Shown here: positions 18,325 to 21,426 of the stretch, one piece after another | Layout: each line of letters begins with the position of its first letter | How positions within the stretch are numbered: position 1 is the stretch's first letter | Source: a virus | Virus genome (UHGV): UHGV-0360783 | Strand: one strand, 5' to 3' | DNA: 23,936 nt | Program-made: the position numbers and the translations under genes | Notes under the pieces: generated by a model | Seen by the model: only the letters and a program-made list of their open reading frames with translations | Told to the model about the DNA's origin: nothing | Database searches by the model: none

Positions 18325-18420
18325 AGCCTCACCTCCGCAAATAACGGATGGTGTACACGGTTCGGAACGAAGAGGAAAGGTATAGAAGTTACATTAGCGT
18401 AAGGCTTGAACATCTATTCA

Positions 18421-18450
18421 AAAAGAAAAACGCCAGCGATTATTCTGGCG
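18421..18450 (-). terminator. Putative intrinsic terminator on the minus strand between the AraC-family gene and S
   Basis: Minus strand reads CGCCAG-AATAATCG-CTGGCG followed by TTTTTCTTTT (plus-strand hairpin 18431-18450, A-run 18421-18430). Confidence 0.5.
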
Positions 18451-18512
18451 TAGCTGAAAGCATCATACAATTATTAAATACGAAAATTACAAAATCATTA
18501 AAACGCATCACG

Positions 18513-19243
18513 TTACATCATGTCTTTTTCTAAAAAAAGTCTTGATGAATATTGATGGGGAGGAACACCAAAATATCTTCTGAAAACACTTACAAAATAT
18601 GACGTGTTTTCATAACCGCATATCTCAGCAACTTTTCCAACAGAATATAAATTGTAGCTTAATAACCTTTCCGCCATCACCATTCGCTCTTCAAGAATTA
18701 ACTTACTAAATGATAAGCCTTCGTGCTTTAATTTTCTTTTTAACAGACTTTCACTCAGATACAGTCTTGAAGATATATCACAAAGTCTCCATGCTGCAGA
18801 TATATCCGTGTGAATAATAGCCTTAACTTTACTTCCTAAACTATTAAGACATCCAAATAAAAAACTTTGCACTATTTTCTCTGAAGATAAGATAGCAAGA
18901 CATGCAAGTGATATTTGATTTCTAACAAAATCCACAGTTCTGCCATCACAATTCAAGCATGCAATCAAGTTCTTTAACAATGAAAAATCTTCACATTCCA
19001 CCATCAAGTATGCCGGATAGAACCTTCTTACAGAAAAAGGTGAGAGTGTGTTGCTTTTAAAGAAATCATTAACTGTTTTCTCTTCAACATCTACGATCAT
19101 TACATGATCTATATTTGATGAAAAAAATCTTTTAAATTGTAATCAATGAGAACAGCACTTCCTTTTTTAAACAAAATATCTTCTTTACCAATTCGGACAT
19201 CAAACGAGTTCAACACCAAAATGATAGAACATATGTATGGCAT
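18513..19243 (-). pseudogene. AraC/XylS-family transcriptional regulator, split by a frameshift in a T7 homopolymer (N-terminal 44-codon ORF 19109-19243, main ORF 18513-19100)
   Basis: The C-terminal 100 aa (...LKRKLKHEGLSFSKLILEERMVMAERLLSYNLYSVGKVAEICGYENTSYFVSVFRRYFGVPPHQY) is a typical AraC-type HTH domain. My translation of the upstream minus-strand ORF gives MPYICSIILVLNSFDVRIGKEDILFKKGSAVLIDYNLKDFFHQI*. The two frames overlap at the A7/T7 run 19121-19127; one extra T would fuse them into an ORF of about 246 aa. Markedly AT-rich. Confidence 0.6.
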
Positions 19244-19594
19244 ATTATCCACCTGATATCATTGGGGTTACACCAGGTAAGTATAGGTGGAAAATCAATA
19301 TTCGCCAGTTCAACAATAAGGAAAATCTCATTGCATCACAAGTATAAAATTATGTATTTAACTCACAAAGACAAATTATTAAACCAATCTGTTATATTAT
19401 ATATAGCTGCGTGGAATCATAATATTATATATTTTGACTGGCATGTTTACCACCTTTAAGTTGCATCTCAATGGTTTCTTCAGCGTAAACAGAGTTTTTA
19501 TACAAACTGACACTCTGGGTATCATAGTGTAGTTTTTACGATTGTAAATATCCTGCATGCAGGAACTCATCCTTTTGGATGATATCGCATACAA

Positions 19595-20554
19595 TTAATT
19601 TACCATCAGTCTTAGAGCCAGTTCGTCCGGATAGGGATCGAAGTAATTCTGTGTAAGCAAGTAATCATTAGGATACTCACCCAGATAATGCTTCAGCAGA
19701 GTCAACGGCGCAAGAAGAGGTAATGTGCCAGAACGATAGTTAAGTATAACCTCGCTCAACTCTTTACGCTGGCGTGTACTTAAGTAGTTACTAAAATACC
19801 CCTGTATATGCATCAGCACATTCGTGTGATTTTTACGTGATGCAGGTTTTCTGAGAATCGCCATCAGCTTATCACGATACACCTCAAAGTATGATTCAAG
19901 GTCCGCCCACTCGTGTATTGCAGCCACAAATGGTCCCATATCTTTATAGCCTGCCTGACTATGCGCCAACAACTGAAGCTTATAACGACTATGAAAAGCT
20001 AATAACTCTCTTCTTGATAATTTCTCCTTGTAAAGGTGATTGAGCTCATGCAAAGCAAAAACTCTTTCAACAAAATTCTCACGAAGCACTGGATCATGTA
20101 ATCGCCCATCCTCTTCAACCGGTAGCCAGGAAAACTTTTCCATCAAAGTGCTCGTAAATAGTCCCACTCCATCTTTACGACCTCGATTACCATTTTCATC
20201 ATAGACACGCACGCGCTCCATGCCACAGCTGGGAGATTTAGCACAAACCACAAACCCCGATACATCCTTTAATTTGTCCATATAAGAACGACTAAACTCT
20301 GTCATTCTCTCTGTCACATCCTCATTCTGGTCGTGGCTGAAACACATCCGTATATTTCCTTGCGTCGAGCGCACAAGACGTAGAGCAGGACGCGGAACTG
20401 GCAGCCCTATAGCCATTTCCGGACATACTGGTCTGAATGTTACCCATTCCACTAATTTGTCCATTAAAAAGTCAGCTCTTTTGTGACCACCATCAAAACG
20501 AACAGCAGAGCCGGCCAAACAACCGCTGATTCCAATCACAGGTTTTTTTATCAT
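19595..20554 (-). CDS. DUF523-DUF1722 fusion protein (YbgA-like; DUF523 is the thiouracil desulfidase TudS family)
   Basis: 319-aa ORF MIKKPVIGISGCLAGSAVRFDGGHKRADFL...CPEMAIGLPVPRPALRLV...SPSCGMERVRVY... with the conserved Cys-containing motifs I associate with DUF523, and a C-terminal half resembling DUF1722. GGGGGAG RBS 4-5 nt upstream of the ATG. Domain assignment is from memory, not an HMM search. Confidence 0.8.
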   Translation of the reverse strand: MIKKPVIGISGCLAGSAVRFDGGHKRADFLMDKLVEWVTFRPVCPEMAIGLPVPRPALRLVRSTQGNIRMCFSHDQNEDVTERMTEFSRSYMDKLKDVSGFVVCAKSPSCGMERVRVYDENGNRGRKDGVGLFTSTLMEKFSWLPVEEDGRLHDPVLRENFVERVFALHELNHLYKEKLSRRELLAFHSRYKLQLLAHSQAGYKDMGPFVAAIHEWADLESYFEVYRDKLMAILRKPASRKNHTNVLMHIQGYFSNYLSTRQRKELSEVILNYRSGTLPLLAPLTLLKHYLGEYPNDYLLTQNYFDPYPDELALRLMVN

Positions 20555-20746
20555 ATTCTCCCCCTTGACTAATTCATTAACACATAAACTGTGTAGTGCA
20601 CGGAATAAATTGCCTTTCTGGCGTCATCACTGACAATTTTTCTGTTATAGACTATTCCTAATATAGTATGAAAGTTCTTTAAGTGATCGGTCGTAATCAT
20701 CTATCTTTCATACTTACTCTCAACTATCAAAAGTACAGGATTTATT

Positions 20747-21271
20747 ATGAAGTTATGGCCTGTGTTGACTGGCATTGCACTCTCTTTCACTCTTATAGCA
20801 TGTAAGGCCCCGACACCACCTAAAGGTGTGCAGCCGATTACAAATTTTGACGCCAACCGCTACCTCGGAAAATGGTATGAAATAGCTCGCCTCGAGAACC
20901 GGTTCGAACGTGGTCTGGAACAGGTCAGCGCTACCTATGGAAAACGGAACGACGGAGGGATTCGTGTACTTAACCGTGGATACGATCCAACGAAAAATAA
21001 ATGGAGCGAGAGCGAAGGTAAAGCATACTTTACTGGAGATACTAAAACTGCAGCGTTGAAGGTTTCGTTTTTTGGCCCCTTCTATGGTGGCTATAATGTA
21101 ATCAAACTGGATGATGAGTATAAGTATGCTCTTGTCAGTGGTCCGAACAGAGAATACCTATGGATTCTGGCAAGGACCCCAACTATTCCAGATAAAGTAA
21201 AAGCAGACTATGTGCGAACCGCTCAAAAGTTGGGATTCAATGTCAATGAATTATTATGGGTTAAACAATAA
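20747..21271 (+). CDS. Bacterial lipocalin (Blc-like) outer-membrane lipoprotein
   Basis: 174-aa ORF MKLWPVLTGIALSFTLIACKAPTPPKGVQPITNFDANRYLGKWYEIARLENRFERGLEQVSATYG...KVSFFGPFYGGYNVIKLDDEY...YLWILARTP... with lipobox LIAC and the lipocalin motifs of E. coli Blc (GxWYEIAR, SFFGPFYGGYNVI). AGGA RBS. Divergent from the DUF523 gene. Confidence 0.88.
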   Translation: MKLWPVLTGIALSFTLIACKAPTPPKGVQPITNFDANRYLGKWYEIARLENRFERGLEQVSATYGKRNDGGIRVLNRGYDPTKNKWSESEGKAYFTGDTKTAALKVSFFGPFYGGYNVIKLDDEYKYALVSGPNREYLWILARTPTIPDKVKADYVRTAQKLGFNVNELLWVKQ

Positions 21272-21300
21272 AATCCCTACCCGAAATAATACTTATTAGA

Positions 21301-21326
21301 AAAAAACCAGCCTTTGGGGAGGCTGG
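21301..21326 (-). terminator. Intrinsic terminator downstream of Q (tR'-like)
   Basis: Minus strand reads CCAGCCT-CCCCAA-AGGCTGG followed by TTTTTT (plus-strand hairpin 21307-21326, A6 at 21301-21306). Lies about 100 nt after the Q stop, where lambdoid phages place tR'. Confidence 0.55.
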
Positions 21327-21426
21327 CTAAATCAGGAAACAAGCTGTTATATGATAATAACTACGTTGCGATTCCAACATTTAAAATGTTAGACTAATGA
21401 GAATCAGACAGCAACTTTTCCTTTAA
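21327..21426 (-). promoter_or_regulatory. Putative late promoter pR' / qut region and short 6S-like leader
   Basis: Position between the Q stop and the tR'-like hairpin. Candidate minus-strand elements TTGCTG-17nt-TAACAT or TTGGAA-17nt-TCATAT are weak matches only. Assigned by position, not strong motif evidence. Confidence 0.3.

What the first reader, a model, noticed from the sequence alone, without database searches (positions are those of the whole stretch)
18325..21426. Three-gene cargo island between the Q antiterminator and the lysis cassette
Between Q/pR'/tR' and S, where Stx phages carry stx and DLP12 carries nmpC, this prophage carries a Blc-like lipocalin lipoprotein (plus strand), a DUF523-DUF1722 protein and an AraC-family regulator (both on the late strand). 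None is a phage structural, replication or lysis function. The AraC gene and the intergenic leaders look strongly AT-rich (roughly 30-35% GC by hand count on sampled stretches) against a backbone above 50%, suggesting a later, possibly H-NS-silenced acquisition. The two late-strand genes sit downstream of the putative pR', so like stx they could be co-induced with the late operon. The function is unknown; it may be a conversion or fitness module, an exclusion function, or something new.
Basis: partly seen in the sequence, partly recalled or inferred. Interest (0 to 1): 0.75.

Follow-up and report, generated by a model that had tools for sequence, protein, structure and literature searches.

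The report
Prophage cargo: lipocalin, tRNA de-thiolase, dead regulator
The three genes between the phage late-gene switch (Q) and the lysis genes are a common, already partly characterised cargo cassette of E. coli lambda-like prophages: an outer-membrane lipocalin, an enzyme (RudS) that removes the UV-sensitive 4-thiouridine mark from tRNA, and an acid-stress-type regulator that is broken here, so the island is real but ordinary.

Summary
Window 18325-21426 lies exactly between holin S and antiterminator Q. It carries a lipocalin gene (+) and, on the late strand, a DUF523-DUF1722 gene and an AraC-type gene. GC is 38% against 56% in the structural arm.

It is not a new kind of system.
- **Middle gene:** it is RudS, a tRNA 4-thiouridine desulfidase. 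It is 93% identical to RudS_vir of phage 1H12, which lowered tRNA 4-thiouridine when overexpressed (NAR 2024).
- **Lipocalin:** blc was already listed as a moron in over half of 19 infant-gut lambda phages. This exact protein was quantified in a lysogen proteome.
- **AraC-type gene:** it belongs to the YdeO/GadX-like group. It is 54% identical to an O157 prophage regulator, probably PatE. Here a -1 frameshift in a T8 run makes it a pseudogene.

The cassette matches 1156 of 5426 complete E. coli genomes (992 at ≥80% coverage), 12 phage records and at least 80 viral contigs, in DLP12-like and Qin-like prophages.

New here: lipocalin and rudS were captured as a pair. In Enterobacter and relatives they flank a MerR/MlrA-like regulator and a transthyretin-like gene, and the phage keeps that module's promoter blocks. 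Both are under strong purifying selection. The AraC gene decays repeatedly.

Most likely role: lysogenic conversion of envelope and near-UV/tRNA physiology, with added Q-driven read-through in inducible relatives.

The parts
21427..21804 (-). Late antiterminator Q (QuuD-like, 125 aa; an upstream TTG would extend the ORF to 21819)
   Evidence: PF06530, E 2.5e-51. 97% DNA identity to the K-12 DLP12 quuD region. Distant homolog of Q21, PDB 6p18, E 2e-8.
21329..21426 (-). Putative pR'/Q-loading region (promoter not resolved)
   Evidence: Inferred from its position directly after Q. A short motif (ATATAACAG..GTTT..TTAG) is shared with the otherwise unrelated region after quuD in K-12 (A2). The promoter scan was not above chance.
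21305..21328 (-). tR'-like intrinsic terminator
   Evidence: 9-bp stem with 5 GC pairs, then a T run. Hairpin identical in phages 1H12 and IdasGreatGrand (A2).
20747..21271 (+). blc2: outer-membrane lipocalin lipoprotein, antisense to late transcription
   Evidence: PF08212. NCBIfam Blc subfamily, 316 bits against cutoff 267. Lipobox LIAC with Lys at +2, read from the sequence. 64% identical to E. coli Blc (PDB 3mbt). 82% identical to the rudS-linked lipocalin of E. cloacae. Annotated as WP_000780581.1 in the 100%-identical GF131 locus; that accession was quantified in a proteome.
20555..20746 (.). Divergent blc2|rudS promoter region
   Evidence: Retains conserved blocks of the chromosomal blc|merR intergenic region: AAGT.T and TTC.TA.TATATT..GA.T..TC (A4). 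33% GC.
19595..20554 (-). rudS: TudS(DUF523)-DUF1722 fusion, tRNA 4-thiouridine desulfidase
   Evidence: PF04463 and PF08349. 93% identical, without gaps, to RudS_vir H3V29_gp66. Cys12, Cys44 and Cys110 present. dN/dS 0.10 against the 1H12 allele.
19253..19594 (.). AT-rich spacer (32.7% GC), probably holding the araC promoter
   Evidence: The ORFs in it are not conserved between alleles. No Pfam hit. Promoter-like sites are at chance level.
18513..19243 (-). YdeO/PatE-like AraC-family regulator, pseudogene (-1 frameshift in the T7 run at 19121-19127)
   Evidence: A1. PGAP 'frameshifted'. HTH_18 and HTH_AraC. Best NCBIfam match is YdeO, below cutoff. 54% identical to the O157 CP-933I-region AraC.
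18430..18451 (-). Intrinsic terminator after araC, upstream of S
   Evidence: 7-bp stem with 5 GC pairs, then a T run.
18109..18324 (-). Holin S (EssD, P21 type), first gene of the lysis cassette
   Evidence: PF04971, E 2e-35. Homology to K-12 essD resumes 11 nt upstream of it.

Best explanation
The island is a composite moron cassette in the Q-S slot of a DLP12-type lambdoid prophage. It is built from two units.

**Unit 1: the divergent pair blc2 | rudS.** It was captured once from an enterobacterial chromosome. There the same two genes flank a MerR/MlrA-like regulator and a transthyretin-like gene. The phage copy lost both of those but kept the promoter region.
- RudS is a [4Fe-4S] desulfidase that converts 4-thiouridine at tRNA position 8 back to uridine. 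That removes the near-UV chromophore whose crosslinking stalls aminoacylation and triggers ppGpp and growth delay.
- Blc2 is an outer-membrane lipocalin lipoprotein, and it is made in lysogens.

**Unit 2: a YdeO/PatE-like AraC regulator next to S.** Characterised prophage regulators of the wider AraC/XylS family (AppY, PatE, PsrB) switch on host acid-resistance genes. In this window a homopolymer frameshift has killed it.

**Inferred mode of action.** In the lysogen the genes run from their own promoters, as lysogenic conversion of envelope and UVA/tRNA physiology. In inducible relatives, Q-modified polymerase from pR' reads through tR'. It then runs antisense across blc2 and sense through rudS and araC before reaching S, which boosts RudS late in infection.

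**Shown:** gene identities, cassette structure, origin, prevalence and purifying selection.
**Shown by others:** RudS_vir activity on overexpression, and presence of the Blc2 protein.
**Inferred:** native expression of rudS, Q read-through, and the fitness benefit.
For: - **RudS:** domains; 93% identity to the tested RudS_vir; cluster cysteines present.
- **Capture as a pair:** 36 of 64 species loci read Blc(-)|MerR-TTR-RudS(+). The directly adjacent form occurs in C. sedlakii (Pfam of the neighbours).
- **Promoter blocks:** kept in the phage intergenic region (A4).
- **Single origin:** the phage RudS alleles form one long monophyletic branch.
- **Selection:** dN/dS is 0.10 for rudS, 0.06 for blc and 0.25 for araC between alleles with dS 0.2-0.37.
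- **Integrity in 80 viral contigs:** RudS 80/80 and Blc 79/80 full length. AraC is full length in only 61, partial in 15 and absent in 4; a few of these contigs end within the cassette.
- **Retention in decayed prophages:** the pair survives in Qin-like and scrambled remnants.
- **Expression in a lysogen:** the exact Blc2 protein was quantified and rose 2-3 fold after 15 min of meropenem.
- **Moron anatomy:** terminators after Q and after araC; swapped against nmpC in K-12.
- **AraC family:**. It also occurs alone in a Q-S slot.
Against: - No data show rudS transcription or lowered s4U at native expression levels. RudS_vir was tested only by overexpression.
- pR' is not mapped, and the promoter scan is at chance level.
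- This prophage has the DLP12-type early region (ybcM, ybcL, ybcK, emrE), and K-12 DLP12 is cryptic. Q-dependent induction may therefore not occur in this copy.
- The MerR regulator that accompanies the pair in chromosomes is missing, so regulation in E. coli is unknown.
- IS elements lie within the cassette in several sampled genomes, so it is dispensable in many strains.
- No LexA box links it to the SOS response.
Confidence: 0.65

Rival explanations
1. RudS is mainly a lytic-phase auxiliary gene. It is silent in the lysogen (H-NS, no activator) and is produced only with the late operon. There it strips s4U from the tRNA pool, so that a UV- or sunlight-induced cell keeps translating phage late proteins instead of entering the UVA/stringent arrest.
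For: rudS and araC are co-oriented with the late operon, and only two intrinsic terminators lie on that strand. All sampled copies sit behind the same Q type. RudS overexpression shortens UVA growth delay, shown for RudS_KT. The cassette is carried by plaque-forming phages.
Against: The native promoter blocks are retained. The pair is kept intact in defective prophages that can no longer run a lytic cycle. Desulfidation cannot repair tRNA that is already crosslinked. There is no SOS box.
Confidence: 0.2
2. The cassette is an exclusion or defence module. The lipocalin lipoprotein blocks an outer-membrane receptor, as Cor or Llp do, or RudS alters tRNA so that superinfecting phages or tRNA-targeting toxins fail.
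For: It is an outer-membrane lipoprotein encoded by a prophage and expressed in the lysogen. Membrane-protein morons predominate in these phages.
Against: None of the three proteins hits a PADLOC model. Blc2 and RudS have 70-82% identical chromosomal orthologs in a conserved non-phage module, which points to a housekeeping or stress role. No sequence similarity to Cor, Llp or Sie was seen in Pfam or PHROGs.
Confidence: 0.07
3. It is neutral hitchhiking cargo in a recombination-tolerant slot, on its way to decay.
For: The araC frameshift in this window; recurrent T-run slippage; IS elements within the cassette in several sampled genomes; truncation by IS3 in BL21.
Against: dN/dS is 0.06-0.10 for blc and rudS over dS 0.2-0.3. 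RudS is full length in 80/80 and Blc in 79/80 viral contigs. The Blc2 protein is expressed.
Confidence: 0.06

Closest known systems
RudS_vir (H3V29_gp66) of Escherichia phage 1H12; RudS family (Jamontas et al., NAR 2024, PMC11417400)
   Same: Same gene at the same position (Q - blc - rudS - araC - S). 93% amino-acid identity over 319 aa without gaps, with the same Cys12, Cys44 and Cys110. In that paper, overexpressing the RudS genes cut E. coli tRNA s4U 4.7- to 26-fold.
   Different: A different allele (dS about 0.3). That paper did not discuss the prophage context and states that E. coli lacks RudS homologues. Native expression and phage biology are untested.
blc moron of infant-gut lambda-like coliphages (Mathieu et al., Nat Commun 2020, PMC6969025); E. 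coli Blc (PDB 3mbt, 1qwd)
   Same: A lipocalin lipoprotein gene in lambda-like phages, listed as a moron in over 50% of 19 phages. The matching phage records are the 1H12 and Lambda_ev series; I take these to be that study's set, from my own knowledge. Lipocalin_2 domain and lipobox are present.
   Different: Only 64% identical to host Blc. It is 77-82% identical to a distinct lipocalin that is syntenic with rudS in Enterobacter and relatives. It therefore looks like an ortholog of that rudS-linked lipocalin rather than a copy of E. coli blc.
Chromosomal lipocalin | MerR(MlrA/BluR-like) - transthyretin-like - RudS module of Enterobacter, Leclercia, Lelliottia, Raoultella and Phytobacter
   Same: The same two end genes in the same divergent orientation, with conserved promoter blocks.
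   Different: The phage copy lacks the regulator and the transthyretin-like gene. It is 43-44% GC and sits in a late operon. No donor lineage was identified.
Prophage AraC/XylS regulators of acid resistance: PatE, PsrA/PsrB (EHEC), AppY (DLP12), YdeO/GadX
   Same: About 245 aa, AT-rich and prophage-borne. Full-length match to the YdeO model (E 6.5e-37). 54% identical to the AraC at the O157 tail-fibre/pinE prophage end, probably PatE.
   Different: Below every equivalog cutoff. Not an ortholog of any tested regulator. Frameshifted in this window. Its targets are unknown.
Q-S slot cargo of lambdoid phages: stx in Stx phages, nmpC in DLP12
   Same: Same slot downstream of Q/pR'/tR'. It directly replaces the nmpC segment of K-12. 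As with nmpC, the first gene is an outer-membrane protein gene antisense to late transcription.
   Different: No toxin and no tRNA genes. Q-dependent expression is demonstrated for stx (from my own knowledge, not checked here) but not for this cassette.

Membership tests
RudS (TudS-DUF1722 tRNA s4U desulfidase) | N-terminal TudS/DUF523 domain fused to C-terminal DUF1722 | tested here: met
   PF04463 covers residues 7-149 (E 3e-40). PF08349 covers residues 192-309 (E 2e-40).
RudS (TudS-DUF1722 tRNA s4U desulfidase) | Three cysteines that ligate the catalytic [4Fe-4S] cluster (Cys12, Cys44, Cys110 in RudS_vir and RudS_ST) | tested here: met
   C12, C44 and C110 are present in the motifs ISGCLAG, RPVCPEMA and SPSCGME. 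The positions come from Table 1 of PMC11417400.
RudS (TudS-DUF1722 tRNA s4U desulfidase) | Removes s4U from tRNA | not testable with these tools
   Shown by overexpression for the 93%-identical RudS_vir. Not shown for this allele or at native expression levels.
Bacterial lipocalin Blc (outer-membrane lipoprotein) | Lipocalin_2 fold and a score above the Blc subfamily cutoff | tested here: met
   PF08212, E 7e-44. NF007786 scores 316 bits against cutoff 267. PDB Blc chains match at E 3.5e-69.
Bacterial lipocalin Blc (outer-membrane lipoprotein) | Signal peptide with lipobox and an outer-membrane sorting residue | tested here: met
   Read directly from the sequence: MKLWPVLTGIALSFTLIAC|K. The lipobox is LIAC and the +2 residue is Lys (not Asp). 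No predictor was run.
Bacterial lipocalin Blc (outer-membrane lipoprotein) | Orthology to E. coli chromosomal blc | tested here: not met
   64% identical to E. coli Blc, against 82% to the rudS-linked lipocalin of E. cloacae. Synteny with rudS is seen in 43 chromosomal loci.
AraC/XylS regulators, YdeO/GadX/PatE group | C-terminal double helix-turn-helix domain | tested here: met
   PF12833, E 6.5e-15; PF00165, E 1e-11.
AraC/XylS regulators, YdeO/GadX/PatE group | Intact full-length reading frame | tested here: not met
   T7 instead of T8 at 19121-19127 gives a -1 frameshift (A1). PGAP annotates a pseudogene.
AraC/XylS regulators, YdeO/GadX/PatE group | Equivalog-level match to a named regulator (YdeO, GadX) | tested here: not met
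   YdeO 127.5 bits against cutoff 348. GadX 86 bits against cutoff 500. 54% identical to the probable PatE.
Lambdoid moron / Q-S cargo | Located between Q/tR' and S, dispensable, and replaced by other cargo in relatives | tested here: met
   Replaces nmpC of K-12 DLP12 with sharp homology breaks. araC occurs alone in L014. An araC-less variant exists.
Lambdoid moron / Q-S cargo | Own promoter and terminator, atypical composition | tested here: inconclusive
   Terminators were found, GC is atypical and native promoter blocks are conserved. No promoter has been demonstrated, and the scan is at chance level.
Lambdoid moron / Q-S cargo | Q-dependent co-expression with late genes (as for stx) | not testable with these tools
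   Architecture only.
Known anti-phage defence systems | Match to a defence-system protein model | tested here: not met
   No PADLOC hit for any of the three proteins.

The most novel reading that the evidence does not exclude
About one E. coli genome in five carries a prophage-borne tRNA 'eraser'. At native expression it lowers tRNA 4-thiouridine and so re-tunes the host's near-UV and stringent response. It acts together with its ancestrally linked lipocalin as a portable light or photo-oxidative stress module. In this reading, lambdoid phages spread an epitranscriptomic conversion trait and boost it from the late promoter when UV induces them.
Probability: 0.3. Interest if true: 0.6.

Novelty: new member of a known kind. 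Interest (0 to 1): 0.3.

Why it matters
For genome annotation, the three 'hypothetical' genes (PHROGs 1450, 3275 and 2809, all listed as unknown function) can be named.

For biology, three modest points are useful.
- The statement that E. coli lacks RudS is untrue for roughly a fifth of sequenced strains. Strain-to-strain differences in tRNA s4U and UVA growth delay may therefore be prophage-encoded.
- The conserved lipocalin-MerR-transthyretin-RudS synteny links a lipocalin of unknown role to the RudS stress module.
- The cassette offers a simple natural system to ask whether a temperate phage benefits from erasing a host tRNA modification.

None of this overturns current views.

Tried and rejected
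- **SPI-2 idea.** I considered that Salmonella orf319/orf242 is the rudS+AraC pair. RudS_ST is indeed ORF319, but I could not fetch that locus. The 241-aa MerR partner found in Enterobacter makes a MerR-type ORF242 more likely. Dropped.
- **PatE/PsrB papers and the EDL933 record.** They were not available. 'PatE' therefore rests on position: about 0.33 Mb in O157, at the tail-fibre/pinE end of a prophage.
- **SOS control.** CTGT-N8-ACAG matches are at chance level (9 found, 8.1 expected), and none lies in a promoter region.
- **Hidden RNA genes.** There are no tRNAs. Rfam gave only sub-threshold noise, and one weak hit is simply the tR' hairpin.
- **Small ORFs in the spacers** (19397-19594 and 20569-20700; both annotated in IdasGreatGrand). 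They are interrupted in the 1H12 and PD7 alleles, so they are not genes.
- **MlrA-box-like inverted repeat** (AAAATTG-N21-CAATTT) in the rudS leader. I saw it by eye. It is degenerate in 1H12 (A4). Dropped.
- **Donor search.** The phage RudS clade lies outside all sampled genera. The blc|rudS spacer of C. sedlakii shares only short blocks with the phage spacer.
- **pR' assignment.** Consensus scanning is not better than shuffles. Only a short motif is shared with K-12. Left as putative.
- **Defence role.** No PADLOC hit.
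Full report
**Observation**

The island is bounded exactly as described. Holin S (PF04971) ends at 18324. Q (PF06530) starts at 21427 on the minus strand. Between them lie three genes:
- a lipocalin gene on the plus strand (20747-21271);
- a DUF523+DUF1722 gene (19595-20554, minus);
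- an AraC-type gene (minus).

The island is 38.4% GC, against 55.8% for the 18.3 kb of morphogenesis and lysis genes. By gene, araC is 28-33% GC, rudS 43.5% and blc 44.2%; the spacers are 33-39%.

One detail was missed. The AraC gene is a pseudogene. A T8 run is T7 here (19121-19127), which splits a 243-aa frame (18513-19243) into 47-aa and 195-aa pieces (alignment A1). PGAP flags the same frameshift in the 100%-identical locus of E. coli GF131.

**Context**

The window is a DLP12-site lambdoid prophage. Its gene order is ybcM, ybcN, ninE, ybcO, rusA, ylcG, Q, then the island, then essD, rrrD, rzpD, iss/bor, nohD and terminase.

Against K-12 DLP12, homology stops inside the 3' end of Q (window 21445) and resumes 11 nt before S (18335). 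The island therefore replaces the nmpC segment precisely.

A strong terminator lies about 100 nt after Q (21328-21305). A second follows araC (18451-18430). No other terminator-like site was found on either strand between positions 18000 and 21900. There are no tRNA genes and no credible Rfam hits.

**How common it is**

| Collection | Result |
|---|---|
| Complete E. coli genomes | 1156 of 5426 match; 992 at ≥80% coverage |
| Phage records | 12, including IdasGreatGrand (99%) and the 1H12/Lambda_ev series (89%) |
| IMG/VR contigs | 127 encode a RudS relative; best 80 kept |

Sampled contexts are DLP12-like and Qin-like prophages, including scrambled remnants. In all of them the island sits between the same 125-aa Q type and an essD/essQ holin. 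Many copies carry IS insertions.

**Middle gene**

It is a RudS. The TudS-DUF1722 fusions were shown in 2024 to remove 4-thiouridine from tRNA. The paper's viral example, RudS_vir, is gene gp66 of phage 1H12. That gene sits in the same cassette. It is 93% identical to the window protein, without gaps, and the three cluster cysteines are conserved.

The paper states that E. coli lacks RudS homologues. That is not so for prophage carriers. In the phage database, full-length RudS is essentially confined to these E. coli lambdoids.

**Lipocalin**

It passes the NCBIfam Blc subfamily cutoff and has a lipobox. blc was already listed as a moron in more than half of 19 infant-gut lambda phages.

It is only 64% identical to E. 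coli Blc. It is 77-82% identical to a lipocalin that lies next to rudS in other Enterobacteriaceae.

The GF131 locus, 100% identical over the island, annotates this protein as WP_000780581.1. That accession was quantified by TMT proteomics in E. coli CCUG 70745. It rose 2.0-fold and 3.0-fold after 15 min of meropenem at two doses. The protein is therefore made in a lysogen.

**Origin of the pair**

I examined 64 species-representative loci that encode a close RudS relative.

| Arrangement | Loci |
|---|---|
| lipocalin(-) \| MerR-like(+) - transthyretin-like(+) - RudS(+) | 36 |
| as above, lacking the transthyretin-like gene | 3 |
| as above, lacking the MerR-like gene | 1 |
| lipocalin and rudS directly adjacent and divergent, as in the phage | 2 (C. 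sedlakii, one other Citrobacter) |

The regulator is a third paralog of MlrA (40% identical) and BluR (36% identical).

The phage blc|rudS spacer still shows the conserved blocks of the chromosomal blc|merR promoter region, including a TATATT element (A4). The phage RudS alleles form one long monophyletic branch with no identifiable donor.

My inference is a single, old capture of the pair, with loss of the regulator and retention of the native promoter.

**AraC gene**

Its homologs are few and almost all from E. coli.
- The best family match is YdeO over its full length, followed by GadX; both are below cutoff.
- It is 54% identical to the 247-aa AraC at the end of an O157:H7 prophage at about 0.33 Mb. 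That position is consistent with PatE (z0321, OI-8), but I could not verify the locus tag.
- A 54%-identical relative sits alone between a lambda-type Q and a P21-type S. Its 3' half, terminator and S align with the window at 72%.

So araC-S is a separate unit from blc-rudS.

**Selection**

Between alleles with dS of 0.2-0.37, dN/dS is 0.10 for rudS, 0.06 for blc and 0.25 for araC.

In the 80 viral contigs, RudS is full length in 80 and Blc in 79. AraC is full length in only 61, partial in 15 and absent in 4; a few of these contigs end within the cassette. These contigs were selected through RudS peptides, which biases the RudS figure.

The araC T run is T8 in 46 loci, T7 in 8, T6 in 2 and T9 in 1. 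The off-frame lengths fall on at least five separate branches. This indicates recurrent slippage, or in part homopolymer assembly error.

**Mechanism**

Established by others: RudS lowers tRNA s4U, and RudS_KT overexpression shortens UVA growth delay.

Inferred here: in lysogens, blc2 and rudS run from their retained divergent promoters and change envelope and near-UV/tRNA physiology. In inducible relatives, Q-modified polymerase starting next to Q must cross the island to reach S. It is antisense to blc2 and sense to rudS and araC.

In this DLP12-type copy, Q-driven expression is doubtful. No SOS box was found, and none of the three proteins matches a defence model.

**Verdict**

This is a real, compositionally foreign cargo cassette, but of a known kind. 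One gene is already characterised from the same cassette, one is already listed as a moron, and one is dead here.

The added value is the two-unit structure, the chromosomal origin of the lipocalin-RudS pair, and the cassette's prevalence in E. coli.

Noticed in passing
window 19121-19127 (and loci L083-L162): The T8 run near the 5' end of the AraC-like gene varies in length: T8 in 46 loci, T7 in 8, T6 in 2 and T9 in 1. The out-of-frame lengths fall on at least five separate branches of a cassette tree. This could be a slippage hot spot, a phase-variable switch, or homopolymer assembly error.
   Followed up: partly
L018 (E. coli BL21(DE3), NC_012971.2 1588189-1589207): BL21(DE3) was the host for the published RudS s4U and UVA overexpression experiments. 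It carries the phage lipocalin intact plus a 147-nt rudS stump cut off by IS3, in a Qin-like prophage. It therefore has no functional RudS, but it is not a naive background for blc2.
   Followed up: partly
L071 and L076 (JARKOR010000151.1 and JARKOR010000135.1): Two short contigs of a public 'Candidatus Nanosynbacter' MAG carry parts of this E. coli prophage cassette (Q, blc, rudS, araC, S) at 82-100% amino-acid identity. This is almost certainly binning contamination.
   Followed up: no
L004-L006, L019-L020 (Citrobacter braakii): A second chromosomal context for rudS: it is the last gene of an operon reading SDR - amine oxidase - DUF1365 - cyclopropane-fatty-acid-synthase-like - DUF2878 - 175-aa protein - DUF3833 - RudS. 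C. braakii ATCC 51113 has two rudS copies.
   Followed up: no
L007-L009 (Salmonella enterica): A 74%-identical rudS lies beside ttcA, together with an integrase fragment and a DUF1367 gene. This looks like a prophage remnant, without the lipocalin.
   Followed up: no
window 16829-17122 (+): The bor/iss serum-survival lipoprotein gene lies downstream of the lysis cassette. It is another AT-rich (41% GC, GC3 33%) opposite-strand moron. PGAP names it iss in the identical GF131 locus.
   Followed up: no
E. coli genome hits H21-H23, H101, H104, H109, H114, H115, H124, H126, H129, H131, H140, H149, H153: The cassette is a frequent IS target. IS1, IS2, IS3, IS911, IS1203 and IS200/IS605 insertions appear in different strains.
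   Followed up: no
window 21290-21445 versus L010 6316-6540: The Q genes are 97% identical, yet the DNA right after Q is unrelated between this prophage and K-12 DLP12, except for a short ATATAACAG..GTTT..TTAG motif. That motif may mark the late promoter or pause element of this Q type.
   Followed up: partly
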